The translations under genes were made by a program, and so were the position numbers. The notes beneath the pieces were generated by a model. That model worked only from the letters and a program-made list of their open reading frames with translations. It made no database searches and was not told where the DNA came from. A stretch of DNA of 20,000 bases from an uncultured virus (IMG/VR IMGVR_UViG_2928819513_000009) (Duplodnaviria > Heunggongvirae > Uroviricota > Caudoviricetes). Shown piece by piece: positions 7,502-20,000 of this stretch. The number at the start of each line of letters is the position of its first letter. The stretch's first letter is position 1. The DNA lies in IMG/VR virus record IMGVR_UViG_2928819513_000009, positions 50,244 to 70,243 of that record; one strand, written 5' to 3'.

Positions 7502-8710
7502 ATGGTGATGCTGAAGGGCAAGGAATACACCGGCGCCGGGCTCGGGACGAACTTCGGCCACAAGAAGCCGACGGTCTCCGGAGCCGATGGGCAGACCCGC
7601 GACCAGTGGGAGAACATGTGGACTGATGGCCTCGCGGAAGTGGGGGACCGCGCAGCCGCTGCCGTGGAGGCTGGCGAATCCGCCGCCGCCAGCCAAGCCG
7701 CCGCCGCCGCATCGGCGACCGCCGCCGCCGGCAGCGCGGGCAACGCCGCGGCCGATGCCGCTGCCGCGCATACCGACCGGGTGCTGTCCGAGACGGCCCG
7801 CACGGCGGCGCAGGCCGCTGCTGCATCCGTCCTGCCCGGCCAGCCGGGCGGTGTGTGCGAGCTGGACGGCGACGGCAAGGTGCCGACCGCCCGCTTGCCG
7901 GCGGCAATTTTGGGCGCTCTCAACTATCAGGGCGGGTGGAACGCCGCAACCAACAGCCCGGCCATCCCGACCGCGGCCTCGGGCAACAAGGGCCGCTACT
8001 ACGTCGTCTCGGTCGCCGGGACCACAGCGATCAATGGCGAGGCGGATTGGCAGGTCGGCGACTGGATCGTTTCGTCTGGCTCAAGCTGGGGCAAGGTGGA
8101 CAACACCGACCGCGTCCGCTCCGTCGCCGGCCGGGCCGGGGACGTCACCTTGACGGTGGCCGATCTGCCCGATCTGGCCGAATTCATCCGCGACACGATC
8201 GCTGCCTTCTTGGTGGGTGGCGCCGGGGTGAGCGTCGTTCACGACGACCCCGGCAACACGCTGACCATCTCTGTCACCAGCCACGGACTGGTGGCGGCGC
8301 GGTACTGGCGGCTGTTTTCCAGCGGCGCGCCCTACACGGGAGCTGGCGACTACACGGCCCTCTACGAACTGGAGATGTTCGGTGCGGCCGACGCTACCGG
8401 AACCGATCTCACCACGGGCAAGACGGCGACCGCCAGCAGCGCCTACCCCGGGTTCCCTGCGTCGCGGGCCATCGACGACAACCCCTCCACGGAGTGGTCC
8501 ACCGCTGACGGACAAGCGTCCAACGCTTGGATTTACGTGGACTTCGGGACGGCAGTGACGGTGCGAGCCCTGTCGCTCACGCCGCAACCCAGCCGCATCA
8601 GCGGGACGGTGTTCGTGCAGTATTCGTCCGACGCTGCCGGCTGGGCGACCTTGGCGACCATCGCCCCGGTCAACGTGACCGGCAAGCAGGTGTTCACCTA
8701 CCTTCAATAG
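7502..8710 (+). CDS. Tail fibre / receptor-binding protein with C-terminal F5/8 type C (discoidin)-like domain
   Basis: SD GAAGGAG. N-terminal anchor, Ala-rich stalk, YQGGWNAATNSP module and VRSVAGRAGDVTL fibre motif. C-terminal ATASS..AIDDNPSTEWS..WIYVDFG..VQYSSD motifs match discoidin domains. Confidence 0.8.
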   Translation: MVMLKGKEYTGAGLGTNFGHKKPTVSGADGQTRDQWENMWTDGLAEVGDRAAAAVEAGESAAASQAAAAASATAAAGSAGNAAADAAAAHTDRVLSETARTAAQAAAASVLPGQPGGVCELDGDGKVPTARLPAAILGALNYQGGWNAATNSPAIPTAASGNKGRYYVVSVAGTTAINGEADWQVGDWIVSSGSSWGKVDNTDRVRSVAGRAGDVTLTVADLPDLAEFIRDTIAAFLVGGAGVSVVHDDPGNTLTISVTSHGLVAARYWRLFSSGAPYTGAGDYTALYELEMFGAADATGTDLTTGKTATASSAYPGFPASRAIDDNPSTEWSTADGQASNAWIYVDFGTAVTVRALSLTPQPSRISGTVFVQYSSDAAGWATLATIAPVNVTGKQVFTYLQ

Positions 8711-8741
8711 CCCCGCGACAACACTCCAACCTGACCGACCC

Positions 8742-8763
8742 GGCCGCCGTGAGCGGCCTTTTT
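8742..8763 (+). terminator. Rho-independent terminator after the tail fibre gene
   Basis: GGCCGC-CGTGA-GCGGCC followed by TTTTT. Confidence 0.75.
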
Positions 8764-8773
8764 CATGCCCACC

Positions 8774-8811
8774 AAAAGAAGCAGGCGACCGGCGGGGGAG
8801 CGCGGTCGCCC
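8774..8811 (-). terminator. Putative minus-strand intrinsic terminator
   Basis: Stem GGCGACCG (8784-8791)/CGGTCGCC (8803-8810), preceded on + by AAAAGAA, giving a U-rich tail on the - strand. Confidence 0.45.
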
Positions 8812-8912
8812 GAGTTCAGGGGAGATAACCTCAGAGGAGCCTACCTGCCCTCATCTTGGCCTGCCTGCTCCCCAGCGTCATGTCCGGCACAACCCGATCC
8901 GGAGCAATCCCT

Positions 8913-9077
8913 ATGACCGATGCAACCGACCCCGCCGAACTGGAGGTCGAGCGGGCGCTCGCCGACTGCGACGGGAACAAGGACGCCGCCCTCCTGCTGC
9001 TCGCCCACCTGCTCGTCAATGCCAAGCGCGGCCTGTCCGCCGGGCATCTGCGCCTCCCGCCGGCCGACCGCCGGTAA
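8913..9077 (+). CDS. Small hypothetical protein (54 aa, MTDATDPAELEVERALADCDG...)
   Basis: SD GGAG at 8901-8904 and ATG at 8913. GC3-rich codons. Helical protein upstream of the endolysin. Confidence 0.6.
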   Translation: MTDATDPAELEVERALADCDGNKDAALLLLAHLLVNAKRGLSAGHLRLPPADRR

Positions 9078-9079
9078 TC

Positions 9080-9102
9080 GCGTTACAGCCGGCCTGTAAC
9101 GC
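9080..9102. repeat. Perfect 9-bp inverted repeat upstream of the endolysin gene
   Basis: GCGTTACAG-CCGGC-CTGTAACGC. Confidence 0.7.
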
Positions 9103-9132
9103 AAAATTCCCACCACCACGGAGACCACCATC

Positions 9133-9966
9133 ATGACCACGCCCACCGGCGCGGCGATCCCGCGCGCCCTCCCGTATGCCGGCGCCGCCCGGCCGCTCCC
9201 CCTCGGTGCCATCAACCGCGCCGCCCGCGACCTCGGTTGCGAGCCCGCCGCCCTCTCGGCGGTGCTGATCGTCGAGACCGGCCTGCGCAGCGGCTTCCTG
9301 GCCGCGCCCGACGGTCGCCCGCGAATCCTCTACGAGGCCCACATCGCCCACCGGCTGTGCGGGCGCCCTGTGCCTGGTCTCTCGGTCCAGTCCTGGGACC
9401 GCAGCCTCTACGCCCCCACCGGGGCCGGCGAGTGGGAGCGGCTGCTGCGCGCCGTCGACGTGCTGGGCGAGGATGTCGCGCTCCAGGCCGCGTCCTGGGG
9501 CATCGGGCAGGTGCTGGGCACCAACCATGGGCTTTGCGGGTTCGCCACGGTCCAGTCCTTCGTGCGGGCGATGGCCGCCGGGGAGGAGGAGCAGCTCGGC
9601 GCGGTGGCCGCCTTCATCCGTGCCCGCCGGCTGGCCGATCCGCTGCGCCGGAAGGACTGGGCCGCCTTCGCGCGCGGCTACAACGGCACCGCCTACGCCG
9701 CCAACAGCTACGACAGCAAGCTGGCTGCCGCTTATGTCCGCGTCATCGCCGGCAGCCCAAACGACGGCACCCTGTCCATCGGTGATGTCGGCCCGGAGGT
9801 CGCCAGCATGCAGCGCGCGCTCGTCGCGCTGGGCTTCAAGGTGGCGACCGACGGTGATTTCGGCCGGATGACGCGCAACGCGGTGGAAGCGTTCCAGGCG
9901 GCGCGCGGGCTGGTCGCTGACGGTGTGGTCGGGCCGGTGACGGCCAAGGCGATGGGGATTGCGTGA
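9133..9966 (+). CDS. Endolysin: DUF3380-type N-acetylmuramidase plus C-terminal peptidoglycan-binding domain
   Basis: Muramidase motifs IVETG..ILYEAH, ASWGIGQVLGTNH and FARGYNG. C-terminal DGDFGRMTRNAVEAFQAARGLVADGVVGPVT is PG_binding_1-like. Confidence 0.9.
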   Translation: MTTPTGAAIPRALPYAGAARPLPLGAINRAARDLGCEPAALSAVLIVETGLRSGFLAAPDGRPRILYEAHIAHRLCGRPVPGLSVQSWDRSLYAPTGAGEWERLLRAVDVLGEDVALQAASWGIGQVLGTNHGLCGFATVQSFVRAMAAGEEEQLGAVAAFIRARRLADPLRRKDWAAFARGYNGTAYAANSYDSKLAAAYVRVIAGSPNDGTLSIGDVGPEVASMQRALVALGFKVATDGDFGRMTRNAVEAFQAARGLVADGVVGPVTAKAMGIA

Positions 9967-10262
9967 TGGCCGCGCTCTCCAAGATCCTCCGCAGCGTCGA
10001 AGGCAATCGCCTCATGTTCTGGTGCCCCGGCTGTGACGCTGCGCACGCTGTCCGCGTTGGCTCCGGCTCTGGCTGGACCTACAACGGCAACCCCGACAAG
10101 CCGACGTTCACCCCGTCGATCCTGTTCAACCCCGGCGGCGAGACGCCCGGCGTGCCGCTCTGCCACAGCTTCGTGACGGACGGGCGCATCCAGTTCCTCG
10201 GCGACAGCACCCACCCGCTCGCCGGCCAGACGGTCGACCTGCCGGACTTCGACGCCGGCTGA
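9966..10262 (+). CDS. Cys/His-rich DUF6527-like protein (putative metal-binding)
   Basis: Start overlaps the endolysin stop (TGATG; GTG at 9963 is an alternative). Motifs FWCPGC..H, WTYNGNPDKPTFTPSIL and CHSFVTDGRIQFLGDSTH. Confidence 0.8.
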   Translation: MAALSKILRSVEGNRLMFWCPGCDAAHAVRVGSGSGWTYNGNPDKPTFTPSILFNPGGETPGVPLCHSFVTDGRIQFLGDSTHPLAGQTVDLPDFDAG

Positions 10263-10286
10263 CCGCAACCACTGCCACAGCTATCC

Positions 10287-10315
10287 GCCCGCGCCGTCCC
10301 GGCCGCGGGCTTTCT
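10287..10315 (+). terminator. Putative weak terminator/attenuator before the holin gene
   Basis: GCCCGCG...CGCGGGC stem followed by TTTCT. Confidence 0.45.
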
Positions 10316-10336
10316 CAAGCCCGAAAGGAATCCATT

Positions 10337-10888
10337 ATGCTCCCTCTGCTTCTCGCCGCCGCCGCTCCCCTCGCCCAACTGGCCGGGGAGGAGATCGCCA
10401 AGCTCATCGGCGGAGACGACCCCGCGACTTCAGCCAAGGGCGCCGCGGTTGCCAAGGCGCTGGTGACCGCCGCCGGCACCGTTGCCGGGGTGCCCATCAC
10501 CCGGCCGGAGGACATCGCCCCGCTGGCCTCGATGATCGCCGAGGACCCCACCAAGCTGGCCGAGTTCCGGAAGGCGGTGGGCGACCAACTCATCGCGCTC
10601 CTGACGCTCGACAACGACGACCGAGCCGGCGCGCGGGGGCAGACGGTCGAGCTGGCCAAGGCCGGCAGCCACATCGCATGGGGCGCCCCGGTGGTGTCCG
10701 TGGTGGTGATGTCCGTGTTCGGAGCGGTGCTCTACAAGGTGCTGAGCACGCCTGCCGGCACCTCGATCGACCCGAACGCCGCAATCATGCTGGGGGCGTT
10801 GACGACGATGGCGACGGCGGTGGTGTCATATTGGGTCGGGTCGAGTGCCGGCAGTGCGGCGAAGGACAAACTGCTGCGCGGCGGGTAA
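10337..10888 (+). CDS. Putative holin (GTA 3TM-holin-like membrane protein)
   Basis: SD AAGGA. Hydrophobic N-terminus and two C-terminal TM segments ending YWVGSSAGSAAKD. Located in the lysis region. Confidence 0.7.
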   Translation: MLPLLLAAAAPLAQLAGEEIAKLIGGDDPATSAKGAAVAKALVTAAGTVAGVPITRPEDIAPLASMIAEDPTKLAEFRKAVGDQLIALLTLDNDDRAGARGQTVELAKAGSHIAWGAPVVSVVVMSVFGAVLYKVLSTPAGTSIDPNAAIMLGALTTMATAVVSYWVGSSAGSAAKDKLLRGG

Positions 10889-11103
10889 GGCAGGGGAGGG
10901 AGCCGCCTTGGCTCACACCATTTTCCCTGGCCAAGGCCATGGCCCTCCATAGTCGAGATGCGGGACCTTGGCGATTCCGCCGCCACCATGGCTCAAGCGG
11001 TGCGGTTCACCCAAGTGCACCCCGTCATCGGATACCCCCGGACCCCGTAAAGGTCCGGGCCTCCTGTATAGGTGATGAACGCTTCTCCAGATGCGGAGAA
11101 AAT

Positions 11104-11131
11104 TCGTGTCATAAGATATATTATGGAAAAT
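11104..11131 (+). other. XerCD dif-like recombination site
   Basis: TCGTGTCATAA-GATATA-TTATGGAAAAT has the 11-6-11 layout. The right arm matches E. coli XerD arm TTATGTTAAAT at 9/11, and the left arm ends in the conserved CATAA. Sits in an AT-rich intergenic island. Confidence 0.75.
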
Positions 11132-11581
11132 ATTAATATAATGACCAGAATATCACGTCGGCTACCTTGCCGACCTTGGTCGCGTCCAGGCGCAGGCAAT
11201 GTCAACATGTTGTGCTTGGCTAGACGGCTTGGCTCCAACGCCTTCCAATCGCTACCAACCGGCAATGGATTGCCCCGGTCCGCTCCGAGTCGCCTGTCGG
11301 CGACTCGACCATCGGGGAGGTTAAGTGCGCAAGGGCCGCGAGCGCTGTCTAATGGTGGAGGAGGAAGATTAGGCACCACAAAATATTGATCGCTTTGGGG
11401 CCGGGAGCCATAAATATCGAAATTTCCGCTTCATATTGGTCTATCTTAGGCGGGGAGCAAAAATCTCCTGGAGAGCGTGCAACAGAGGCCATGCTGGCGT
11501 TGTTGACAGGGCAAATCGCTAGATTTGCGGGGCTCTTCCAGTGTCAAACGCTATATCTGGTGGATTAGAACTTTCCTTCCC

Positions 11582-11610
11582 TTGCAGGCCCCGCGCTCGC
11601 TGGCTAGGAT
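11582..11610 (+). promoter_or_regulatory. Sigma70-like promoter of the small peptide gene
   Basis: TTGCAG (11582-11587)-17 nt-TAGGAT (11605-11610). Confidence 0.55.
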
Positions 11611-11619
11611 TGCCGCGTG

Positions 11620-11832
11620 GAGTCGGGCGGCGGATCCGCCGCCGCCCTAACCACTGACCTGTGAAGGAGGCCAAGATGATCCAATGGATCATTCTAACCA
11701 AGCTCCTGGTTGAACTGGTGCAGTCGATCCAGGCTATCCTGGTCCTCTTGCACTAACCGGAGCGGGGAAGGGTCGGCTGGACCCCGGCCCTTCCTCTCCG
11801 ACACGATAGGACATCTCCTGCACGTCTCGCAA
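11620..11832 (-). ncRNA. Candidate cis-antisense RNA (antitoxin) and its promoter; ends uncertain
   Basis: Minus-strand TTGCGA (11832-11827)-18 nt-TATCGT (11808-11803) points back across the peptide ORF. The transcript itself is inferred. Confidence 0.3.
11676..11756 (+). CDS. 26-aa hydrophobic peptide MIQWIILTKLLVELVQSIQAILVLLH; candidate type I toxin
   Basis: Strong SD AAGGAGG (11664-11670) 5 nt before ATG. Own promoter, with hairpins on both sides (11625-11647, 11758-11800). Below the ORF-track size cutoff. Confidence 0.7.
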   Translation: MIQWIILTKLLVELVQSIQAILVLLH

Positions 11833-11877
11833 GCCGCCAAATCGGCCAGATCATGTATTCGAAACGGCGCATGCACG

Positions 11878-12060
11878 CTATAGGCGGAGCCTGGACGGGG
11901 TAAGCCCTGAGCATGGCAGGCGCTCATCGAACTCTTCGATTCCCTCGTCTTCCGGTTCGCGAACAACCAATGCATCGCGCTCCGCGGCATAGGGGCTCCC
12001 GAGCAGCGGCAGCGCCGCAACAACGCGACCATGACCGGCGTCACGTGCTGCTGTAGCCAT
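11878..12060 (-). CDS. Possible small hypothetical protein or gene remnant (60 aa)
   Basis: ATG 6 nt after the umuC stop. No clear SD and no recognisable domain. Confidence 0.25.
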   Translation of the reverse strand: MATAARDAGHGRVVAALPLLGSPYAAERDALVVREPEDEGIEEFDERLPCSGLTPSRLRL

Positions 12061-12066
12061 CCGCTG

Positions 12067-13353
12067 CTAAGCCCGGACAACGGGCACATCCGTCAATCTG
12101 GTCGTATAAGAGGGTGACCGGGATTCCTGACGCATCCGCCATGCCCGCCCCATCGTCGCCGCAGACCGAAGCGTGTCTCGTCCCATCCTGGCGTTGACGG
12201 CATCCATAGCCGCCATGAGCCGCGACCCGCGTTGCCGATCGGCAGCCTGCAGCAGATCCGGCTGAACGCGCTCGACCGGCACCAAGCCGGATAGGACGAC
12301 GCCGGCCTTGCTGAACTGGAATCCCTCGCGCCAGATCCGTTTCGCCGCCGCGGTGGCCGCTGCGATCAGGGCGAAGCTGTCGTTGGTCGGCGGCTGGAGC
12401 TCGACCGTGGCCGCGTTGGCGTAGCTCGGGCCCGAGCGGAAAGGCGAGGTATGCATGAAGACCTGCAAGGACTCGGCTGCCAACCCATGGGCGCCCTGCC
12501 CTCTCAGCTTCTCGGCCGCGCGGGACGCGTAGCTGGCCACAGCCTCTCGCATCGGCTCCCAAGTCTTCACCGGCTCGCCGAAGGAGCGGGTCACGGCGGT
12601 GCCCTTCACCGGCTGCGGCGCCAAGTCGAGCGGCAGGCACGCCACACCGCGGAGCTCATACACCAACCGCTCACCCACCACCGTCAGCAGCTTGCGCGCC
12701 TGGCGCGGGTCCATGCTGCGCAGGTCGGCCGCAGTCTTCACGCCGAGCATGTTGAGCTTCTCCGCGCTGCGCCGGCCGATGCCCCAAACCTCCTCCACCG
12801 GCACCATGTGGAGCACTTGCTCGCGGTCTCCCTCGTGCGTCAGGTCGCATACCCCGCCCTCCCCCATCAGCGACTTCTTGGCCGCGTGGTTCGCTAGCTT
12901 GGCGAGCGTCTTCGAGGAGGCGATGCCGATGCACGTCGGGATTCCGGTCCACATCTTCACCGTTGAGCGAATCTCGGATGCATAGGCCGAGAGGTCACGG
13001 CCGTGAAAGCCCGAGAGGTCGAGAAAGCTCTCGTCGATCGAATAGTTCTCCAGGGCGGGGGTGAACCCGCGAAGGCACTCGGTCACCCTCTGGCTCATGT
13101 CGCCGTACAGCACGTAGTTGCTGCTGAACACGCGAACCCTGTGCCGGCGGACCAAATCCTTCACCTCGAACAGCGGCTGCCCCATCTTCACGCCGAGGGC
13201 CTTGAGTTCGGAACTCCGCGCGACGAAGCATCCATCGTTGTTCGACAGCACGCCCACAGGAACGCCTTCAAGATCGGGCCGGAAGACCCGCTCACAGCTA
13301 ACGTAAAAGTTGTTGCAATCGACAAGGGCAATCGCTCGCGGCGCCATAGCCAT
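12067..13353 (-). CDS. umuC: Y-family DNA polymerase V catalytic subunit UmuC
   Basis: Motifs [47 protein letters not shown] and C-terminal [14 protein letters not shown]. Start overlaps the umuD stop (exact start 13356, 13353 or 13347). Confidence 0.95.
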
Positions 13354-13808
13354 CACCTCCGGTGGAACCGAATGGTGCTGTAGATCACTCCCCAGATCTC
13401 GAATCCGGGCCGCCCCGTGACGTCCACGGCTTGGTATGCACGATCGTCGGAGTCTGGCGCCAGATAGGTCCGGCCGCTCCGAAGCAAGAGGCGCTTGCAG
13501 GTCAGCTCACCGTCAAGCACCGCAACAACCACGTCGTCGTGTCTGGCCGTGAGGCTGCGGTCGACGAGCGCCAAGTCGCCATCATGGATGCCGGCGCGCG
13601 ACATCGAGTGTCCGCTGATTCGCAAGGTGAATGTCGCGCTGGGGTGCGGTACCAGGATCTCAGAAAGGTCGAGCCGACCCTCGACATAGTCGGCAGCCGG
13701 CGACGGAAAACCGGCCGGCACATTCGCCTCAACCATCCAAATCTCGCATACGCTCATCTCGACGGGCTCCAGGTGGAGCTCGAACCCGACGTTGGTCAAT
13801 GCTGGCAC
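13353..13808 (-). CDS. umuD: UmuD-like S24 peptidase (Pol V accessory subunit)
   Basis: VPAGFPSPA cleavage site, GHSM catalytic Ser and TCKRL catalytic Lys. SD GAGGAGG before GTG. Confidence 0.93.
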
Positions 13809-13869
13809 GGCCCCCTCCTCCCACCATTAGGCGCGACTTCGTAAACGTAGGAAGGATGTCCGGGTTCCG

Positions 13870-13884
13870 GAACTTTTCAAGAAC
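13870..13884. promoter_or_regulatory. Alphaproteobacterial LexA (SOS) box upstream of umuDC
   Basis: GAAC-TTTTCAA-GAAC (GTTC-N7-GTTC on the - strand), ~60 bp upstream of umuD. Confidence 0.85.
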
Positions 13885-13941
13885 AAAGAGCGGTTGACAG
13901 CTGAAACTGGAGCGCTCGTCTCTCAGGATCCGATTCGGGCC

Positions 13942-14116
13942 GGGGACTTGGGTGACGCCTACGGCCTTCATCCACAGCGGCAGGCTATGTCCACGGGACC
14001 AGAGTGACGGACATGGGGACTTGGGTGACGCGACTCGCTTAATCCACGGGACTCTGGTGACGCATACTACAGATAGAGTCTACAAGCTTTCAAATAGCCC
14101 CGTCACCTAAGTCCCC
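13942..14116. repeat. Iteron-containing plasmid replication origin
   Basis: 17-bp repeats with consensus GGGGACTTGGGTGACGC: 13942-13958 and 14015-14031 (exact), 13994-14010 and 14047-14063 (degenerate), and 14100-14116 (inverted). DnaA-box-like TCATCCACA at 13968-13976. AT-richer tract at 14064-14097. Confidence 0.85.
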
Positions 14117-14119
14117 GCC

Positions 14120-14148
14120 TTGACGGTCTGCGGTAGGGCAGCCATGAT
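14120..14148 (+). promoter_or_regulatory. repA promoter abutting an inverted iteron
   Basis: TTGACG-17 nt-CATGAT, 3 bp from the iteron at 14100-14116. Confidence 0.6.
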
Positions 14149-14170
14149 CCCAGCAGATATGGAGGTTGGT

Positions 14171-15088
14171 ATGAGTGAAGCTCGACGCTTGATCCAGGTT
14201 CACGGCGTCGAAGAGGCCCGACGAATTGCTCCGCAAGAACTGCGCCCTGCTATCGACATTGCGTCACAGGTTCTCGCATCAGAAGAGAACAAGACAGGCT
14301 TTAGCTATTCGGGCTTTGCCCTCACCGCCCTCCCCTACCGGCAGCTGGCTACCAGCGACAACTGGGTGAAGGAAGGGCATGACGTTACGCTTTCTATCGA
14401 CCCTGGCACTCTGAAAATCAACAATCGGATCCGCCGCTTTGGTGTTCCATACGGCAGCTATGCGCGGTTGGTCTTGATTTACTTGCAATCGGAAGCCGTC
14501 AAAAACAGCAGCCCGCACATCGAGCTTGGTGGCTCCCTCCGGGAATTCGTCACCGGGAAGCTTGGACGTGAGTATGGTGGTAAGACTGGAACGCTGCTGA
14601 TGGATCAGATCTATCGGCTTGCCGCCTGCTCAATGCGATTTTTCTGGTCAAACGCGCATGGAGACGGCTTCGAAGCAAAGAACATCATCAAGAGCGGCTA
14701 CTTCTATCGTGCCGGCGCAGGTGATGCCCAGGCTCAGCTCTGGGACGATGAAGTCGTTCTAGACGCCGATTTTTATGGGCACCTGAAGAAACACGCTGTG
14801 CCGCTACTGGATGAAGCTGTGCGTGCTCTGGCCGACGATGCGGTCGCTCTCGACGTCTATATCTGGCTGGCCTATCGACTCCGCGTCGTGGATCGACCAA
14901 CCCCGGTAACTTGGGCTGCGCTGCACGCCCAGTTTGGCACAAATTACAAACTCGTCCGTCAGTTCAAGCACAAGTTCATTCCGAATCTTCAAAAGGCCCT
15001 GGCCGCCTATGATGGTGCGGTGGTGTCGATCGAAGACACTGGAGTGGTGCTGCATCCGAGCCGCCCGCCTGTTAGCCGGCTTCGGTAG
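14171..15088 (+). CDS. repA: Plasmid replication initiator RepA (RepA_C / IncW-pBBR1-like family), 305 aa
   Basis: SD GGAGG before ATG 14171. Motifs TALPY, GVPYGSYARLVLIYLQSEA, IELGGSLREF and ALDVYIWLAYRL. Flanked by iterons. Confidence 0.88.
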   Translation: MSEARRLIQVHGVEEARRIAPQELRPAIDIASQVLASEENKTGFSYSGFALTALPYRQLATSDNWVKEGHDVTLSIDPGTLKINNRIRRFGVPYGSYARLVLIYLQSEAVKNSSPHIELGGSLREFVTGKLGREYGGKTGTLLMDQIYRLAACSMRFFWSNAHGDGFEAKNIIKSGYFYRAGAGDAQAQLWDDEVVLDADFYGHLKKHAVPLLDEAVRALADDAVALDVYIWLAYRLRVVDRPTPVTWAALHAQFGTNYKLVRQFKHKFIPNLQKALAAYDGAVVSIEDTGVVLHPSRPPVSRLR

Positions 15089-15199
15089 GCGTCACCCAAG
15101 TCCCCAGTCTCACAACGGCCGACTGCAGACCCTAAACGGGGCTCAGCGCCCTTCCTACGTGAGATGGCGCTTGCCCTAAGGCGTCACCCAAGTCCCCAG
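15086..15199. repeat. Two inverted iterons downstream of repA
   Basis: AGGCGTCACCCAAGTCCCCAG at 15087-15107 and 15179-15199. 15086-15105 is the exact reverse complement of 13942-13961. Confidence 0.85.
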
Positions 15200-15260
15200 A
15201 AGGTCGACGTTGACACCCTCCCCTCCCCTGTCGCACCCTCCGGCAAAACGGGGGAAGCTC

Positions 15261-15896
15261 ATGCCCATCATCACCTGCGCCAGCACCAAGGGCGGTCCGG
15301 GAAAGACCACGCTCTCTCTTTGCCTCGCCGACCACTGGCGTCGCTCCAACCGGTCGGTCGAGTTGTTGGACGTCGACCCTAATCGCAACCTGACGCAGTG
15401 GATCAAAAATTCTGGGGCGTCTATCGCCTGCACAGCGATCGATGAAGACGACATCGTGGAGCGAGCGGCGGAAGCTGAAGCTCGGTCCGATTTCGTGGTG
15501 ATCGATGTCGCTGGCGCGCTCGCTCGCGGCCTCGTGCATGCGATCGCTGTGGCAAATGCGGTGTTGATTCCAAGCCGTCCCGACGCCAAGGACACCCTCG
15601 AAGCGGCCAGAACCTACCAGAACGTCATTGCAGAACGCCGGCTGGCCCAGCGCCGGAATCCTAAGGCTACGATCCCGGCCGCGGTGGTGCTGATGCAGGT
15701 GAACAAGCGGGCCCAGTCCTTCGGCTTCGCCAAGTCCCAACTGGAGGCGTTGAACGTTCCCCTGCTGAACGCCGAAGTGCCGTTCCGCGCGGCCTATCAG
15801 AATTACAGCTTTGCTGGGCTGCCACTGGATGATACCGCGGTCCGCGGCGACTATGCCGAGCTGGGTGCCGCCGTGGAGGCTCTGCTCCATGGCTAA
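15261..15896 (+). CDS. parA: ParA partition ATPase (short, type Ib/ParF-like), 211 aa
   Basis: Deviant Walker A KGGPGKTT, LLDVDPN and Walker B FVVIDVAG. No N-terminal HTH extension. TTGACA at 15210-15215. Confidence 0.9.
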   Translation: MPIITCASTKGGPGKTTLSLCLADHWRRSNRSVELLDVDPNRNLTQWIKNSGASIACTAIDEDDIVERAAEAEARSDFVVIDVAGALARGLVHAIAVANAVLIPSRPDAKDTLEAARTYQNVIAERRLAQRRNPKATIPAAVVLMQVNKRAQSFGFAKSQLEALNVPLLNAEVPFRAAYQNYSFAGLPLDDTAVRGDYAELGAAVEALLHG

Positions 15897-16491
15897 GAAG
15901 CTTACCCCACGGATCGTGACTGCAGAACAGGCGACGGAGATTCTGAGCCCGTCGGATGCCCCGGCCCCGCGTCTTTCGCGACCTCTTGCGCCCGGCAAAC
16001 TTCGCACACGTGCGAGTTTTGCGGATGCTATCGGCCGGCTCTGGGCTCAGGCTGAGGAAAACTTCATCGCCATCGGCCGCTACCTGAATCACGCCAAGAC
16101 CACCTTGGAGCATGGCGAGTTCATGGAGATGGTGGAGCGCGATCTCCCGTTCCGCTACAGCACTGGCAACCGCATGATGAAGGTGGCTGCGGCTCTGGAT
16201 GCCAACGTCCTGTCGCTGGACACCATGCCCGGTTCCTATGCGACGGCCTATGAGGTGCTTACGCTCACGGACGAAGAGCGTTCAGCTGCCGCTGAACAGG
16301 GTTTGATCCGGCCTGATGTGCAACGCAAGGAAATCGCGGAGTTCAAGAAGCGCCTGCGAGCCCCTTCCCCTGCCCCATCAACCGATCGCCGCACAGAACT
16401 GCTGCGGGAGATCAAGCAGGCGAAAGATGAGGTAAAGCGTTGGAAGGAGCGGCAGGCGCAGCTGGAAGCCGAGCTGGCGGCTTTGTCCTAA
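15889..16491 (+). CDS. DUF3102-like putative DNA-binding protein; candidate ParA partner (200 aa)
   Basis: ATG overlaps the end of parA by 8 nt. Motif IGRYLNHAKTTLEHGEFMEMVERDLPFRYSTGNRMMKVA. C-terminal coiled coil. Confidence 0.75.
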   Translation: MAKKLTPRIVTAEQATEILSPSDAPAPRLSRPLAPGKLRTRASFADAIGRLWAQAEENFIAIGRYLNHAKTTLEHGEFMEMVERDLPFRYSTGNRMMKVAAALDANVLSLDTMPGSYATAYEVLTLTDEERSAAAEQGLIRPDVQRKEIAEFKKRLRAPSPAPSTDRRTELLREIKQAKDEVKRWKERQAQLEAELAALS

Positions 16492-17072
16492 TCTCGGAAT
16501 CGAACCAAGGGTGTGGTGCCCTTGAGGTACAGGGGGTGCTTGGGGCTGCCATCAGCGTTTGTCCCAAAGCACCACATCTCGACGCCGGACTCCTTCAGAA
16601 TCTGGACGGTCTCCTCACCGAAGACGGCTAAGGGGCGCGGCAGATTCCCCCAGCACGCCACCACCCTGTGCGCCGCTGTCGCTGCACTCAGGATCGCCGG
16701 CAGGTTTGCTCCAGACCGAGGCTCAACTCCTGCTCCGCTGAGGGATGCGGGATCGGTGGCGCGGAAGTCGCCGACGTTGGCCTTCACGAAACCAAGGTAG
16801 CCCTCGCGAACGGTGAACCCCCATTCCCGCCTGATGGTGGGATCGTTGAAGGCTGCATCTGCAGTGCTCGGGTTCATTCCGATCAGCAGCCAGTGGTGGG
16901 CGGGAAATTCATCACCGACCCATCGGCGGAGAATGTGGCGATAACGGCCGCAAGGGCTGAAGGCAGCGTCTCCGTGGAGACCGGGAGGGAGGGCCGTCTT
17001 CACCTTGCCGCCTGGCGCATGAAGCATGGCCGGCGTCGACGACGGGGCTGCGTCGAAGAGGTCGAGAGTCAT
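16488..17072 (-). CDS. DUF1643 family protein
   Basis: Motifs SPCGRYRHILRR, IGMNPSTADAAFNDPTIRR, RATDP, VVACWG and GSPKHPLYL. Confidence 0.85.
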   Translation of the reverse strand: MTLDLFDAAPSSTPAMLHAPGGKVKTALPPGLHGDAAFSPCGRYRHILRRWVGDEFPAHHWLLIGMNPSTADAAFNDPTIRREWGFTVREGYLGFVKANVGDFRATDPASLSGAGVEPRSGANLPAILSAATAAHRVVACWGNLPRPLAVFGEETVQILKESGVEMWCFGTNADGSPKHPLYLKGTTPLVRFRD

Positions 17073-17470
17073 TCCTTATCCCTCCCCTCCCCCGCCGTGG
17101 TCTCGGACAGGATCTCCCTCACAACTTCCGGCCGCTCCAGCATGACGGAAAGCACCGCGTCAGCTGCCCCCTGGTAGTTGGGCCAGTCGGCCGCGATCAA
17201 GTGAGCGTGCATGACGGCCCCACCCTCTCGATGCCGCAAGTCGCGATCCAGCCGGGCGAAGGCCTGGATGTGTCGAAATTTCCTCCACGCCTTCTCTACA
17301 CCGTGGACCTGCCGTGCGAGGGCGAGCAGCTCATCCAGCTCGGCAAGCTCTTCGTCGGTCATGCGCCCTTCCCCACCAGCGATGTCGAAGGCGCAGAGCG
17401 CGTGAGCAACGCGTTCCTGGAAGGTGATGGGGTGGCGTGGAGCTGCTTGGCCGAACGAGTCAGCCACCAT
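17069..17470 (-). CDS. Hypothetical phage protein (133 aa)
   Basis: Overlaps both neighbours in the minus-strand operon; no motif recognised. Confidence 0.65.
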   Translation of the reverse strand: MVADSFGQAAPRHPITFQERVAHALCAFDIAGGEGRMTDEELAELDELLALARQVHGVEKAWRKFRHIQAFARLDRDLRHREGGAVMHAHLIAADWPNYQGAADAVLSVMLERPEVVREILSETTAGEGRDKE

Positions 17471-18005
17471 GGATCGGCTCCAGCTTCAGGTGGTCGTTGG
17501 TCCCGTGCATCTGGACGCGGTTCCGAGCGAGCGCGTCCTCGCGGTTCAGACCGATCAGGCTTCCGACCTTGCGGCGGGCCGTAAGGCTGATAGCCCGGTA
17601 GACGGTCTCGGAATGCTCCAGGCTGTAGTCGGCCGCGGCCGACCACATGTCCGCGTCAGTCCATCGGCGCTCGGCTTCCCAGCGGATGACATAGACCTCT
17701 GACATGTTGAGGTGGGTGACCGGGAATGCGCCGCGAGACTTGGGAGCGGCGTCGCGATACTCGAACATCCCAGGCTCGCTGCGGATCGGGACGACCCTCC
17801 ACCATCCATGGACGATCATCCAGGGGGACACCACCGGTCGCCGGCCGTAGGGATCCCATAAGGAGTCGTCAGAGGCCGCGGCGTCGAGGAAGGCGCCGAC
17901 ATCGTGATGCCCTTTCGCCCAGAAGCCGAGCCACCCTCCCCCATCACCGCCGGCCTCGACCAACCGCTCGATGTCCATCTTCTCAACCGGCACGGCATCC
18001 TCCAT
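17460..18005 (-). CDS. Hypothetical phage protein (~177-181 aa)
   Basis: In the operon; start may be GTG at 17993 after GGAGG. No motif recognised. Confidence 0.6.
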   Translation of the reverse strand: MEDAVPVEKMDIERLVEAGGDGGGWLGFWAKGHHDVGAFLDAAASDDSLWDPYGRRPVVSPWMIVHGWWRVVPIRSEPGMFEYRDAAPKSRGAFPVTHLNMSEVYVIRWEAERRWTDADMWSAAADYSLEHSETVYRAISLTARRKVGSLIGLNREDALARNRVQMHGTNDHLKLEPIHGG

Positions 18006-18618
18006 CGATGTTGGCCTTGGTCACCCGAAACGTGAGGGCGACGACAGCCGGGTTGGCGTTCCAAGACTCCGCGCCATGGAGGGTGTCCCACAGCGCCATG
18101 AAGCCGGCGCGGTATGACCCCTTCCAGTCCGGATTGAAGGGGCGCTGGATTTTGGTCTGGCTGGTGTACTGGCCCGCACCCTCGGCGATGGCGTCCTCCT
18201 CGCTGATGTCGTGGAGGTGCTGATACCGAACCTCCTCAACGATCAGCGTCATCCTGCTGACCCAGCGGAACATGTGGATCGAGGGGCGCCAGCCTTTCTC
18301 GCTGCCCGACTCCAGGTCCCCCGCCCAGATCGACCATGCGCCCTCCCCGGCCGGGTACTTGGAGTAGTCGAAAGACGGCCCTGCCCCATAGTTCGGACCG
18401 TCATACTCCGGATACCAGCGATGAAAGTTCGCCCTGTAGCAGACACAAGGGCCGCGAGCGGAGTTGGCCGGACACCAAGCCTCACGAACCCATAGGCGGT
18501 CACCGGGTTTGGCCTTGGCGAGGGGGCTGCGAGCGAGGCGCCGCGTCTGCGTCTTCAGGCCAGCCCACAGGGAGCGGGCCATCTGGTCCGAGAAGATGAC
18601 GGAAAGGTCATTTTGCAT
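17983..18618 (-). CDS. ASCH/PUA-like phage protein (211 aa)
   Basis: Motifs GLKTQTRR, PGDRLWVRE, WRPSIHM..RMTLIVEEVR..LHDISEEDAIAEG and WNANPAV. Confidence 0.8.
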   Translation of the reverse strand: MQNDLSVIFSDQMARSLWAGLKTQTRRLARSPLAKAKPGDRLWVREAWCPANSARGPCVCYRANFHRWYPEYDGPNYGAGPSFDYSKYPAGEGAWSIWAGDLESGSEKGWRPSIHMFRWVSRMTLIVEEVRYQHLHDISEEDAIAEGAGQYTSQTKIQRPFNPDWKGSYRAGFMALWDTLHGAESWNANPAVVALTFRVTKANIDGGCRAG

Positions 18619-18826
18619 CCCGTGTCTCCTTGGGGCTGATGGGAGTTGAGAGCGCGCGCCGGCACTTCGAGCAGGTCACGGCTTCGGATCGGAGAGTCCA
18701 CGTAGCGCGGCTCAAGTCGATGGCACGCGGGGAGGTGAAGCACGCCGCCGAAACTCGACCATCCGGGGCGACCAGCTTGGCCATGTGGATGGTCTTCGAT
18801 CGGGTCTGAAAATCAGGCGGCATCAA
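18608..18826 (-). CDS. Small Cys/His-containing hypothetical protein (72 aa)
   Basis: H..C...VTCSKC putative Zn-binding pattern; overlaps both neighbours. Confidence 0.6.
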   Translation of the reverse strand: MMPPDFQTRSKTIHMAKLVAPDGRVSAACFTSPRAIDLSRATWTLRSEAVTCSKCRRALSTPISPKETRDAK

Positions 18827-19121
18827 TAATGCTCCTCACCATGCCGGGCAGTTCGGCCTTCAGGGCTGCCATCACGCGCTTTTCGAGTTCCTTGCGGGGG
18901 GCAGGCGGCTTGGGCGGGACCTTCAGCGGTTCGCCGTTGGCGGTCCGAACGTCGATCTGGCGGTAGAGTTCAGCGTAGAGCGCTTCGACCGCCTCGCCGT
19001 GCTCCTCCCACGCCGCCTCTGGCGCCGTCTTCCAGTTCGGATGATCTCTCAACCGGCGTTCGGTGACAGCCAGCGACAGGATGCGTTCCAGGTCGGCGCG
19101 CATGGGTGAGGGGTCATGCAC
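18813..19121 (-). CDS. Hypothetical protein (102 aa)
   Basis: Overlapping operon arrangement; helical protein. Confidence 0.6.
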   Translation of the reverse strand: MHDPSPMRADLERILSLAVTERRLRDHPNWKTAPEAAWEEHGEAVEALYAELYRQIDVRTANGEPLKVPPKPPAPRKELEKRVMAALKAELPGMVRSIIDAA

Positions 19122-19404
19122 GACACGCTTCCCTCGAAACGGTCAGCAGTTCCAGCCATGGTGCGATCGGCTCGGCCGGCTGGGCCTCGACGACGAAATC
19201 GCACTCGCCGCACTGGCACAGGTAATCCGGCTGGCAATGGCGACAGGCCTTCGTGTAGCGGACGCCGGTCCAGCCGTCGCGGAAGCCGTTGGCGAAGGTC
19301 ACCGCGAGATAGCGGTCACCGATTCGGATCGGATGGCCGCAGCGGTAGCAGTCGTGCTGCTTGTGGGCGGTGTGGAACACCTGGCGGAGAATAGTTGCCA
19401 TCAC
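19114..19404 (-). CDS. Cys-rich zinc-finger-like phage protein (96 aa)
   Basis: AHKQHDCYRCGHPIRIGDRY, CRHC and CQCGEC. SD GGAGGG upstream. Confidence 0.65.
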   Translation of the reverse strand: MMATILRQVFHTAHKQHDCYRCGHPIRIGDRYLAVTFANGFRDGWTGVRYTKACRHCQPDYLCQCGECDFVVEAQPAEPIAPWLELLTVSREACRA

Positions 19405-20000
19405 TCACCCTCCGTGGCGGGGCGCGCCTTCAAGGCGTCGGCTTGGCGCATGATTGACGACAGCAGCGCCATCATGCCGCTTGGATCTCTAAGCAGGACG
19501 TAGGCGCCATGGGCGGATTGGACCCGCCCCAACTCGGCCTTGATCAGCACGGCATCGTGGCGGATGTTGTCGGCATCCTCGGTGCGCGCCATCCGCCCGT
19601 CCGCCCTGGCGTTTGCTTCGGCGGCGCTGATTGCGGCGGCGATGATGGAAACGGCCTGGGGGTTCGCATGCCATTCGTCGAAGGAGTCGCCCTTAACGAG
19701 GATATGACCTTCTGGAAAGCCGACGCTTTTCGAAAGGGCGTCGATCAAATCGCGAGCTCGCAGCTCCGGGCTCGTCGGCAGGGAGGGCTGGGGCTGGCCA
19801 GTTACGGGCGCCCTCCCCAGCTTGTTGGTTTCCACGGTATCCAGAAGGCCGGCGGCGCGGGCTTTGGCGAGAATGTCGTCGGCCCTGATACCGAGATGCA
19901 GGAACCTGCGGGTCTGCATCGTAGGCAGCGCGGCGAGGGTGGTGACGATTTCGTCCAACGAGCAGGCTAGTTCCCGTGCCAGCAGTTTGTCGGTCGGGCC
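19401..20000 (-). CDS. Hypothetical phage protein, 5'-partial
   Basis: Reading frame is open from the window end (GPTDKLLARELACSLDEIV...). Stop overlaps the next gene's start. Confidence 0.6.
   Translation of the reverse strand, partial: GPTDKLLARELACSLDEIVTTLAALPTMQTRRFLHLGIRADDILAKARAAGLLDTVETNKLGRAPVTGQPQPSLPTSPELRARDLIDALSKSVGFPEGHILVKGDSFDEWHANPQAVSIIAAAISAAEANARADGRMARTEDADNIRHDAVLIKAELGRVQSAHGAYVLLRDPSGMMALLSSIMRQADALKARPATEGE

What the first reader, a model, noticed from the sequence alone, without database searches (positions are those of the whole stretch)
10890..16491. Complete plasmid-maintenance module inside a tailed-phage genome: probable circular phage-plasmid
Seen: between the lysis genes and a phage accessory operon lie a dif-like site, a type I toxin-like locus, LexA-boxed umuDC, an iteron origin, repA, parA and a partner gene. 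Known: P1-like (circular) and N15-like (linear) prophages combine replication, partition, resolution and addiction functions. Inference: all four are present here but built from different parts, namely RepA_C instead of P1 RepA, host XerCD instead of Cre/lox, a DUF3102-like protein instead of ParB, and a peptide toxin instead of Phd/Doc. This may be a poorly characterised alphaproteobacterial phage-plasmid type.
Basis: partly seen in the sequence, partly recalled or inferred. Interest (0 to 1): 0.8.

Follow-up and report, generated by a model that had tools for sequence, protein, structure and literature searches.

The report
Azospirillum phage-plasmid with host-type dif site
This is most likely a roughly 93-kb tailed phage of the soil bacterium Azospirillum that lives as a circular plasmid, using a plasmid replication and partition cassette and a copy of its host's chromosome-resolution site instead of an integrase.

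Summary
The listed features are at the stated coordinates: a dif-like site, a small hydrophobic ORF, LexA-boxed umuDC, a 17-nt iteron array, RepA_C repA, parA and an overlapping DUF3102-family gene.

The window is the last 20 kb of a 70,243-b virus record labelled 'provirus'. A second, 100% identical but permuted 84,714-b contig of Azospirillum agricola joins the record's right end to its left end through 23,118 further bases. Together they give a closed 93,361-bp map. It has no tyrosine or serine recombinase hit and no protelomerase hit.

The dif-like site belongs to a genus-wide family, CATAA-N6-TTATGGAAAAT. It has 7 sites on 7 contigs in this host and occurs in 39 of 61 Azospirillum genomes, with 0 control hits.

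Two relatives of the phage carry other cassettes: Rep_3 + ParA + its own recombinase, and RepA_C + ParA + ParB.

The phage-plasmid reading is supported in silico. The weak point is the 'peptide toxin'. It is a conserved 26-aa ORF with no antisense RNA found, and a BrnT/BrnA pair elsewhere is the better addiction candidate. The ParB-like role of the DUF3102 protein rests on synteny only.

This is a new variant of a known kind. Episomal state, replication and induction are untested.

The parts
9133..9966 (+). Endolysin (muramidase + peptidoglycan-binding domain). It marks the end of the phage late/lysis block that borders the module.
   Evidence: Pfam Muramidase 2.2e-48 and PG_binding_1 3.2e-16. 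PHROG endolysin 9.4e-70.
11104..11131 (+). dif-like site TCGTGTCATAA / GATATA / TTATGGAAAAT: an 11-nt left arm, a 6-nt centre and an 11-nt right arm. It is the proposed target of host XerCD for multimer resolution.
   Evidence: Sequence read. CATAA-N6-TTATG occurs at 7 sites in the host genome against 0 in the control, and all 7 end in GAAAAT. The extended pattern occurs in 39 of 61 Azospirillum genomes with 0 control hits.
11457..11610 (+). Copy of the host nrdJ promoter/leader region. It holds two NrdR-box-like 16-mers (about 11516-11531 and 11548-11563) separated by 16 nt, and lies upstream of the small ORF.
   Evidence: 83% identical to G002:C4 and 79% to G014:C32. The gene downstream in G002:C4 is the B12-dependent ribonucleotide reductase (NF005736, 1.2e-274). 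The box architecture follows the abstract of PMC13584703. The match to the box consensus was judged from recall.
11676..11756 (+). 26-aa hydrophobic small ORF behind GAAGGAGG, flanked by GC-rich hairpins.
   Evidence: Sequence. Hydropathy 1.61 and fold. A 24-aa homologue with the same flanking hairpins lies in G032:C37. No relevant Rfam family.
12067..13356 (-). umuC, the catalytic subunit of translesion DNA polymerase V.
   Evidence: Pfam IMS 1.4e-35, IMS_C and DUF4113. NCBIfam UmuC 436.4 bits against a cut-off of 431.
13353..13808 (-). umuD, the S24 autoproteolytic subunit.
   Evidence: Peptidase_S24 3.7e-24. NCBIfam 135 bits against a cut-off of 110.
13870..13884 (-). LexA (SOS) box, GTTCTTGAAAAGTTC on the umuD strand, 62 nt upstream of the umuD start.
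   Evidence: It is the only GAAC-N7-GAAC / GTTC-N7-GTTC match in the window (shuffle mean 0.38). The identical 15-mer lies upstream of the A. brasilense umuD, and a box of the same form lies upstream of the Methylobacterium pMRAD01 umuD: 3 of 3 loci examined. The motif GTTCN7GTTC is given for Caulobacter in PMC9578287, Table 1.
13942..14116 (.). Iteron origin. Three direct 17-nt iterons (13942, 14015, 14047) and one inverted copy (14100-14116) abut the repA start. Between them lie ATCCAC-type DnaA-box-like words and an A+T-rich spacer.
   Evidence: The DnaA-box likeness was judged by eye against the recalled TTATCCACA.
14171..15088 (+). repA, a RepA_C-family replication initiator. The longest ORF starts at 14120. 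The ATG at 14171 behind GGAGG fits the homologues.
   Evidence: PF04796 1.5e-23, 84.4 bits against a cut-off of 26. Homologues align from residue 15-18 onward. The frame was checked.
15089..15197 (-). Two further exact iteron copies (15089-15105 and 15181-15197, within 21-nt repeats 92 nt apart) between repA and parA. They are candidate control, handcuffing or centromere sites.
15261..15896 (+). parA, a small (211-aa) Walker-type partition ATPase.
   Evidence: CbiA, VirC1 and AAA_31. NF041546 2.5e-30, below its cut-off. 78% aa identity to ParA of Azospirillum megaplasmids. The 211-aa form is in the protein collection.
15889..16491 (+). DUF3102-family partner of ParA (200 aa). Its start overlaps the parA stop. 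It is the proposed centromere-binding / ParA-stimulating protein.
   Evidence: PF11300 6.6e-8. Start fixed by alignment, and 62% identical to the A. lipoferum DUF3102 protein. The same gene pair occurs in 3 PLSDB plasmids and in G012:C8.
16488..17072 (-). First gene (DUF1643) of the leftward phage accessory operon that borders the module.
   Evidence: PF07799 3.1e-24. Homologues in the related phages G012:C8 (67%) and G133 (29%).

Best explanation
The window is part of a roughly 93.4-kb temperate tailed phage of Azospirillum agricola. In the lysogen it is most likely kept as a circular, low-copy plasmid rather than integrated.

**Shown by sequence**
- A full late-gene set: gpA-type terminase, lambda-type portal, protease-capsid fusion, tail genes and endolysin.
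- An iteron origin with a RepA_C initiator.
- A parA gene with an overlapping DUF3102-family gene.
- A site of the host's own dif family.
- LexA-boxed umuDC.
- No integrase, serine recombinase or protelomerase.
- A closed circular map.

**Inferred mechanism**
1. After infection, the cos-ended DNA circularises.
2. RepA binds the 17-nt iterons and fires the origin beside them. The two extra copies before parA give copy-number or promoter control.
3. ParA and the DUF3102 protein segregate the copies.
4. Host XerC/XerD resolve dimers at the dif-like site. A close relative instead carries its own large tyrosine recombinase in the same region and has none of its host genome's four dif-family sites.
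5. BrnT/BrnA, and perhaps the 26-aa peptide, penalise loss.
6. umuDC is SOS-induced cargo.

The cassette is exchangeable. Relatives of the same phage carry Rep_3 or RepA_C with other partition genes.
For: **Circular map**
- The window is G000:C1:50244-70243.
- G001 1-10178 equals G000 60066-70243 at 100% identity.
- G001 33297-53296 equals G000 1-20000 at 100% identity.
- Both junctions were checked and the extra segment is 23,118 b.
- Further anchors share the same +33,296 offset: TerL at G002:C27:64233, and window 1-1175 at C27:83540-84714.

**No chromosomal junction**
- The 8.6 kb missing from G001 lies on small contigs C59 and C78 at 100% identity.
- The breaks fall where other contigs of the genome hold similar DNA: C38 at 94%, C65 at 81% and C53 at 94%.

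**No integration enzyme**
- PF00589, PF00239 and PF16684 gave 0 hits in G000.
- PF00589 and PF00239 gave 0 hits in G001.
- None of the 35 ORFs of the extra segment and its flanks scanned with Pfam is a recombinase.

**Phage genes.**

**Replicon and partition.**

**dif family**
- 7 of 7 host sites share TTATGGAAAAT, each on a different contig. 39 of 61 genus genomes carry the pattern, with 0 control hits.
- G012 has 4 sites, none on its phage contig C8. That contig has a 527-aa tyrosine recombinase.

**Relatives**
- G012:C8 is a 95,602-b whole contig with TerL 80% identical and 29 shared proteins. It carries Rep_3 with iterons, ParA (49%) and a partner homologue (27%).
- G134 (78.5 kb, TerL 53%) carries RepA_C (39%), ParA and ParB.

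**Unitigs in runs**
- In two runs of one sample, which may be the source of this DNA, unitigs bridge the G000-end junction. By arithmetic from their start about 7.3 kb before the laid stretch, they also cover the plasmid module at a single depth.

**Addiction candidate.** BrnT 8e-26 and BrnA 1.3e-16.
Against: - IMG/VR classes G000 as 'provirus', meaning it was cut out of a longer contig. I could not see that parent contig.
- The circle is inferred from two assemblies that may come from one strain. Neither contig has terminal overlap, and neither is itself closed.
- No physical evidence exists for an episome, for copy number, for origin function or for virion production.
- The only depth hint is weak. 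The element's unitigs have depth 111-118, against 33.5 and 35.1 for two unrelated contigs of the same run. The tool itself says such depths are not copy numbers.
- The XerCD role is inferred from site likeness only.
- The partner protein has no known fold or function: there is no PDB sequence match.
- G133, a relative with TerL 69% identical, is a 'provirus' record with a tyrosine recombinase at its end. The lineage therefore also has members that may integrate.
Confidence: 0.75

Rival explanations
1. The element is a plasmid that carries a defective or cryptic prophage. The replicon works, but the phage part no longer makes infectious particles, so this is a plasmid with phage cargo rather than a true phage-plasmid.
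For: No test of induction or of virions was possible. No holin or spanin was identified by any family search. Azospirillum genomes hold many prophage remnants and GTA-like regions (PMC3899980, passages read).
Against: All large late genes are intact open frames: TerL 690 aa, portal 530 aa, capsid fusion 718 aa, a 2843-aa tail protein and the endolysin. CheckV rates the record 100% complete. The same gene order is kept in relatives at 47-80% protein identity, which argues for purifying selection.
Confidence: 0.12
2. The dif-like site is (also) an attachment site. The element integrates reversibly into a host replicon through host XerCD, as IMEX elements do, and the rep/par cassette only maintains the excised form.
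For: The element has no integrase but has a dif-family site. Its 22-nt core CATAAGATATATTATGGAAAAT, including the central GATATA, is identical to one host site (G002:C33:4795-4816). That site lies on a contig with housekeeping genes (a class-I aminoacyl-tRNA synthetase), next to another element's tyrosine recombinase. Among the 90 sites listed for 39 genomes, no other has GATATA. IMEX elements and dif-like sites in or near prophages on chromids are described in PMC7858055 (passages). G000 carries the label 'provirus'.
Against: Both assemblies are continuous across the site, so the element is not integrated there in either. C33 shares no protein with the element. An intact iteron replicon plus a partition system is hard to explain for an element that lives integrated.
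Confidence: 0.1
3. It is an ordinary integrated prophage, and the rep/par/umuDC block is cargo captured from a plasmid, or an assembly chimera of a phage and a plasmid.
For: The IMG/VR label is 'provirus'. The block has lower G+C (0.55-0.63, against about 0.70 in the late genes). Its genes are most similar to Azospirillaceae plasmid genes.
Against: There is no integrase and no att-like boundary. The map is circular and permuted. Two assemblies and the unitigs of two runs agree on the junctions. Independent relatives have rep/par cassettes at the same place.
Confidence: 0.04

Closest known systems
Phage-plasmids in general (P1-like circular type)
   Same: A temperate tailed phage kept as a circular plasmid, with an initiator and iterons, a ParA-type partition system, a multimer-resolution function, an addiction module, and no integrase.
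   Different: Every part comes from another family. The initiator is RepA_C. The ParA partner is a DUF3102 protein, not ParB. There is no Cre/lox and no element-encoded recombinase at all, but a host-type dif site. The addiction candidate is BrnTA rather than Phd/Doc. The terminase is gpA (lambda) type. The description of P1 is from recall.
N15 / VP882 / phiHAP-1 telomere phage-plasmids
   Same: Among deposited phages, the nearest TerL proteins are those of VPHZ6, VP882 and phiHAP-1, at 38-43% identity. All are extrachromosomal prophages with partition genes.
   Different: No protelomerase domain was found (Pfam of the extra ORFs). The map is circular, not linear with hairpin ends. That VP882 and phiHAP-1 are linear is from recall.
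Azospirillaceae plasmid and chromid replicons (RepA_C; ParA + DUF3102)
   Same: RepA_C homologues occur in 105 of 130 family genomes, with 7 in the host itself. The ParA + DUF3102 pair on A. lipoferum 4B p2, an A. ramasamyi plasmid and Skermanella pTT6-3 is 70-78% and 47-61% identical at protein level. The dif family is shared with host replicons.
   Different: Here the cassette sits inside a complete tailed-phage genome of about 93 kb, not a megaplasmid.
IMEX elements (CTXphi-type) and Xer-resolved plasmids (ColE1 cer)
   Same: They rely on host XerCD acting at an element-borne dif-like site instead of an element-encoded recombinase.
   Different: IMEX elements are filamentous phages or islands that integrate at dif. 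This is a tailed phage with its own replicon and is not integrated at the site in either assembly. No cer-like accessory sequences were examined. The descriptions of CTXphi and cer are from recall; IMEX as a class is described in PMC7858055.
Known Azospirillum phages (PhiAb-Cd, the Sp245 65-kb prophage, GTA-like particles)
   Same: Temperate, mitomycin-inducible phages of the same genus (PMC3899980, passages).
   Different: Those are described as integrative or GTA-like. No Azospirillum phage-plasmid turned up in the searches made, and no close relative exists among 50,697 phage or 72,556 plasmid records.

Membership tests
Phage-plasmid (operational definition) | Complete tailed-phage morphogenesis, packaging and lysis gene set | tested here: met
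   TerL gpA, lambda-type portal, protease-capsid fusion, tail proteins and endolysin are present. CheckV completeness is 100%. No holin was identified.
Phage-plasmid (operational definition) | Plasmid-type replication initiator with origin, and a partition system | tested here: met
   RepA_C scores 84.4 bits and there are 6 iterons against 0.15 expected. ParA is present.
Phage-plasmid (operational definition) | No integration machinery; extrachromosomal topology | tested here: inconclusive
   No recombinase or protelomerase hit. Two permuted contigs give a closed map. The record is nevertheless labelled 'provirus', and no physical or read-depth proof was possible.
Phage-plasmid (operational definition) | Produces infectious virions and replicates autonomously | not testable with these tools
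   Needs induction and minimal-replicon experiments.
P1-like phage-plasmids | Cre/lox-type element-encoded tyrosine recombinase for dimer resolution | tested here: not met
   PF00589 gave 0 hits in G000 and G001, while the control genomes rang in 14 of 14.
N15-like telomere phage-plasmids | Protelomerase (ResT/TelK catalytic domain) and linear genome | tested here: not met
   PF16684 gave 0 hits in G000, and no such hit among the extra-segment ORFs. The map is circular.
RepA_C (PF04796) initiators | Match to the family profile above the curated cut-off | tested here: met
   1.5e-23, 84.4 bits against 26. There was no NCBIfam match.
ParB / centromere-binding protein | ParB_N or HTH_ParB domain, or a known RHH fold, in the gene after parA | tested here: not met
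   The partner matches only DUF3102. The profile search against PDB sequences gave nothing below E = 0.07. It therefore works like a ParB by position only. A separate HTH_ParB protein lies near the terminase, at G000 28476-29285.
ParB / centromere-binding protein | Binds ParA and a repeated centromere | not testable with these tools
The candidate sites are the 21-nt repeats at 15087-15199.
dif / Xer recombination site | 11-6-11 architecture with a conserved XerD-side arm shared with the host's own sites | tested here: met
   7 of 7 host sites and the sites in 39 of 61 genus genomes share CATAA-N6-TTATGGAAAAT, with 0 control hits. The criteria follow PMC7858055.
dif / Xer recombination site | Bound and recombined by XerC/XerD | not testable with these tools
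   Needs genetics or biochemistry.
Type I toxin-antitoxin | Small hydrophobic toxin ORF | tested here: met
   26 aa, hydropathy 1.61, a strong Shine-Dalgarno sequence, and a 24-aa homologue in G032.
Type I toxin-antitoxin | Antisense RNA antitoxin, or membership of a described family | tested here: not met
   No relevant Rfam match at E <= 1. The promoter scan was not above chance (3 found, 1.3 expected). The 131-aa ORF on the opposite strand looks spurious and is not conserved.
UmuDC (polymerase V), SOS-regulated | UmuC and UmuD profiles above cut-off, and an alphaproteobacterial LexA box in the promoter | tested here: met
   NCBIfam 436.4 against 431 and 135 against 110. The box lies at 13870-13884 and is conserved in 3 of 3 umuD promoters examined. 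The motif is from PMC9578287.
BrnT/BrnA type II toxin-antitoxin | Adjacent BrnT_toxin and BrnA_antitoxin genes | tested here: met
   PF04365 8e-26 and PF14384 1.3e-16, at G000 18862-19438. This is outside the window.

The most novel reading that the evidence does not exclude
A tailed phage-plasmid has taken up its host's own dif. The 22-nt core, including the central region, is identical to the dif-family site of one host contig that carries housekeeping genes. The phage could then use XerCD both to resolve its dimers and to enter and leave that replicon. That would be an IMEX-like, integrase-free integration route for a member of the Caudoviricetes, switching between episome and prophage. The swap between 'own recombinase' in the G012 relative and 'host dif' here would mark how such phages exchange resolution or integration strategies.
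Probability: 0.12. Interest if true: 0.8.

Novelty: new variant of a known kind. Interest (0 to 1): 0.55.

Why it matters
- **Under-sampled hosts.** Phage-plasmids are studied mostly in enterobacteria, vibrios and Firmicutes. This gives a defined, testable lineage of about 93-96 kb in Azospirillum, a plant-growth-promoting genus with many replicons.
- **Exchangeable cassettes.** The same phage backbone carries exchangeable maintenance cassettes (RepA_C, Rep_3; ParA with a DUF3102 protein or with ParB; own recombinase or host dif).
- **A genus-wide dif family.** Azospirillum has a dif family with one site per replicon and an invariant XerD-side arm. The phage's site belongs to it. This makes host-Xer dependence of a tailed phage directly testable.
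- **A function to test for DUF3102.** The domain has no known role, and is here a candidate partner of ParA.
- **Mutagenic cargo.** A mobile phage carrying SOS-controlled umuDC could spread mutagenic capacity between strains.

Tried and rejected
- **Structure of the DUF3102 partner.** Structure prediction accepted no jobs (retried once after 20 other calls as its message allowed). No fold was obtained.
- **PDB by sequence.** The partner profile gave nothing better than E = 0.075, on coiled-coil designs. RepA gave nothing.
- **Protein Atlas.** It returned only DUF3102 or unnamed clusters.
- **Rfam over 10300-16600.** One chance miRNA match at E = 0.26.
- **Promoter and terminator scan.** Not above chance: 3 against 1.3 promoters, and 1 against 4.3 terminators.
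- **The 131-aa ORF at 11694-12089 (-).** Rejected as a gene. Its translation has odd composition and it has no homologue in 5 loci.
- **Sequencing runs.** No RNA holder is listed. The runs are kept as contigs only, so no read-level ends, cos site or true copy number could be read.
- **Run X3.** It holds only short pieces at 95-99% identity and low depth, and was not interpreted.
- **Nucleotide searches of the module.** In the phage collection they found only umuC fragments. No plasmid record covers 80% or more of the module.
- **Literature.** 'DUF3102' gave 3 papers, none on partition by their titles or abstract starts. 'phage-plasmid' with 'Azospirillum' gave 3 papers, none relevant by title or abstract. 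'phage-plasmid' with 'XerD' and 'dif' gave 11 papers, none describing such a system by title or abstract; 'dif' also matches 'different'. The review PMC11652158 has 0 occurrences of 'Xer', 'dimer' or 'integrase'.
- **RepA near the ParA/DUF3102 pairs.** tblastn with this RepA found nothing at E <= 1e-5 beside the pairs of the three PLSDB plasmids.

Full report
**Where the window lies.** The window is bases 50244-70243 of a 70,243-b virus record (G000). IMG/VR classes the record as 'provirus' and CheckV rates it 100% complete. G+C falls from about 0.70 in the late genes to 0.55-0.63 across 10.5-16.5 kb.

**The observation**
- Family searches confirm the flanking phage genes. Window 1-4815 is the end of a 2843-aa tail protein with an SLT domain. 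Tail genes follow, then an endolysin at 9133-9966.
- On the other side lies a leftward operon of phage-typical unknown genes, starting with a DUF1643 gene at 16488-17072.
- Between them lie umuC (12067-13356, -) and umuD (13353-13808, -), both above NCBIfam cut-offs. Then come a RepA_C gene (84.4 bits against 26), a small ParA, and a DUF3102-family gene.
- Alignment with Azospirillum homologues puts the partner's start at 15889, overlapping the parA stop. The likely repA start is the ATG at 14171 behind GGAGG.
- The 17-mer GGGGACTTGGGTGACGC occurs 6 times at 3 or fewer mismatches, against 0.15 expected. Three copies are direct and lie upstream of repA. One inverted copy abuts the repA start. 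Two inverted copies sit between repA and parA, inside 21-nt repeats 92 nt apart.
- The only GAAC-N7-GAAC in the window (13870-13884; shuffle mean 0.38) lies 62 nt upstream of umuD. The identical 15-mer precedes the A. brasilense umuD, and a box of the same form precedes the Methylobacterium pMRAD01 umuD: 3 of 3 loci examined. GTTCN7GTTC is the SOS box listed for Caulobacter in PMC9578287, Table 1 (passage).

**The dif-like site**
- At 11104-11131 the sequence reads TCGTGTCATAA-GATATA-TTATGGAAAAT.
- The core CATAA-N6-TTATG has 7 matches in the 7.6-Mb host genome and 0 for the reversed control. All 7 continue with GAAAAT. All 7 lie on different contigs. Their central 6-mers differ, except that G002:C33 has the same GATATA.
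- Across 61 Azospirillum genomes, 39 carry CATAA-N6-TTATGGAAAAT, up to 7 times each. With one exception (two sites on G011:C4) there is one per contig, and no control hit occurs anywhere.
- This is the pattern expected of one dif per replicon in a multi-replicon genus. [quoted passage not shown]
- The element's site is therefore a member of the host's own dif family, well beyond chance. That XerC/XerD act on it is inference.

**Circularity and integration**
- A second record (G001, 84,714 b) was found through RepA. A contig of the same length and coordinates in the genome collection is titled Azospirillum agricola CC-HIH038.
- G001 1-10178 equals G000 60066-70243. G001 33297-53296 equals G000 1-20000. 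Both matches are at 100% identity, and both junctions were verified.
- G001 thus links G000's right end to its left end through 23,118 further bases. G000 in turn supplies the 8.6 kb between G001's ends. The result is a closed map of 93,361 bp.
- In the draft genome, the 8.6 kb sits on two small contigs at 100% identity. The breaks coincide with similar DNA on other contigs (94%, 81% and 94%). They are repeat-induced breaks, not host junctions.
- The 23-kb segment encodes DNA methyltransferases, a DnaQ-like exonuclease with a BRCT domain, an RHH protein, an EamA transporter and many unknown proteins. It has no housekeeping genes. This may be why a classifier trimmed it off as 'host'.
- No Phage_integrase or Resolvase hit occurs in G000 or G001, and no ResT/TelK hit in G000. 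Control genomes rang in 14, 13 and 3 of 14.
- In two runs of one sample, which may be the source of this DNA, single unitigs of 13.9 and 23.1 kb start about 7.3 kb before the laid stretch. By arithmetic this is about window 11556. They cross the G000-end junction at one depth.
- In one of these runs the element's unitigs have depth 111-118. Two unrelated contigs of the same run have 33.5 and 35.1. The tool warns that such figures are not copy numbers, so I treat this as a hint only.

**Relatives**
- RepA_C homologues occur in 105 of 130 Azospirillaceae genomes, with 7 in the host. The ParA + DUF3102 pair recurs on Azospirillum and Skermanella plasmids. The cassette is therefore of host-plasmid type.
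- TerL relatives at E <= 1e-60 occur in 7 of 130 genomes.
- The nearest, G012:C8, is a whole contig of 95,602 b. Its TerL is 80% identical, it shares 29 proteins, and it is collinear over the early and structural genes. After its tail and holin genes it carries Rep_3 with its own iterons, a ParA 49% identical to ours, a partner 27% identical, and a 527-aa tyrosine recombinase. It has none of its genome's four dif-family sites.
- An IMG/VR contig, G134 (78.5 kb, TerL 53%), carries RepA_C (39%), ParA and a canonical ParB.
- G133 (TerL 69%) has a recombinase at its end. Only 26 of its 83 kb were examined.
- The backbone thus carries interchangeable maintenance cassettes. This also argues against a chimeric assembly.
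- The nearest deposited phages by TerL are VPHZ6, VP882 and phiHAP-1, at 38-43%. No plasmid or phage record is close overall.

**The 'type I toxin-like locus'**
- The ORF at 11676-11756 encodes 26 hydrophobic residues behind a strong ribosome-binding site. GC-rich hairpins lie on both sides.
- One homologue, of 24 aa with the same hairpins and 68% nucleotide identity, lies in G032:C37. It was the only locus covering the ORF, in 1 of the 129 other genomes searched. The ORF is probably real.
- Nothing shows that it is a toxin, and no antisense partner or Rfam family was found.
- Just upstream, 11457-11610 is 83% identical to the promoter/leader of the host's B12-dependent ribonucleotide reductase gene. 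It holds two 16-mers 16 nt apart that resemble NrdR boxes. The architecture is from the abstract of PMC13584703. The consensus match is from recall.
- A regular type II pair, BrnT/BrnA, lies at G000 18862-19438. It is the more credible addiction module.

**The partner protein**
- It has 55 homologues at E <= 1e-5, nearly all annotated DUF3102 or unnamed.
- Six 'longest contig' lengths are shared between its hit list and ParA's, in line with the conserved gene pair.
- There is no PDB relative by sequence.
Its ParB-like role is therefore inferred from position and overlap with parA only.

**Verdict.** The phage-plasmid interpretation is supported as far as sequence can take it, with a confidence of about 0.75. 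It is a new variant of a known kind: a circular Azospirillum phage-plasmid lineage that combines a RepA_C iteron replicon, ParA with a DUF3102 partner, and a host-family dif site in place of an element-encoded recombinase. The episomal state, replicon function, Xer dependence, partner function, peptide function and inducibility all remain to be shown.

Noticed in passing
window 11457-11610: A 154-nt copy (83% identical) of the host nrdJ (B12 ribonucleotide reductase) promoter/leader sits upstream of the 26-aa ORF. It holds two NrdR-box-like 16-mers 16 nt apart. A phage may have borrowed dNTP-sensing control.
   Followed up: partly
G000 18862-19438 (outside the window; L004): A BrnT toxin / BrnA antitoxin gene pair (8e-26 and 1.3e-16). 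It is a more conventional addiction candidate than the small peptide.
   Followed up: partly
G002:C38 (L034-L036), 47,132 b: The same host genome holds a second, structurally different phage contig with HK97-type capsid, portal and TerL. It also carries a RepA_C gene (59% to ours), two tyrosine recombinases, a ParB fusion, a Tn3 transposase, SRAP and AbiU2. Its tail-fibre gene is 95% identical to window 7502-8710. This may be a second phage-plasmid, and it is the cause of one assembly break.
   Followed up: partly
G002:C33:4795-4816 (L042, L071): A host dif-family site whose 22-nt core, including the central GATATA, is identical to the element's. It lies between another element's tyrosine recombinase and ECF-sigma/TonB/aminoacyl-tRNA-synthetase genes. 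No other GATATA centre occurs among the 90 listed sites.
   Followed up: partly
61 Azospirillum genomes: A genus-wide dif family, CATAA-N6-TTATGGAAAAT. The right arm is invariant, the central regions vary, and there is usually one site per replicon or contig (up to 7 per genome). I found no description of it in the papers searched.
   Followed up: partly
window 1-4815 (G000 46527-55058): A single 2843-aa open frame with an SLT transglycosylase domain near window residues 155-263. It is a very large tail (tape-measure-like) protein. Its homologue in G012:C8 is half as long, at 1394 aa.
   Followed up: no
window 19401-20000 and beyond (G001 9579-10940): The right end of the 'provirus' record cuts through a 453-aa ORF of unknown family. 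The record boundary is therefore not a biological end.
   Followed up: partly
G000 1-16000 (L004): The early region encodes a DnaN-like sliding clamp, a GapR-type DNA-binding protein, a CII-like regulator, two DNA methyltransferases, an SNF2 helicase, a PAPS-reductase-like protein and an ATP-dependent ligase. This is a rich replication and anti-restriction set for a temperate phage.
   Followed up: no
G000 613 and circular-map position 87002: Two more GAAC-N7-GAAC / GTTC-N7-GTTC boxes lie elsewhere in the element. One is inside or beside the CII-like gene. They are possible further LexA targets linking SOS to the lysis-lysogeny switch.
   Followed up: no
L016 15812-15875 (G001 about 24,812-24,875): A short stretch with two- to four-fold higher unitig depth, where unitigs break in both runs. 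It is probably a short repeat shared with other parts of the genome.
   Followed up: no
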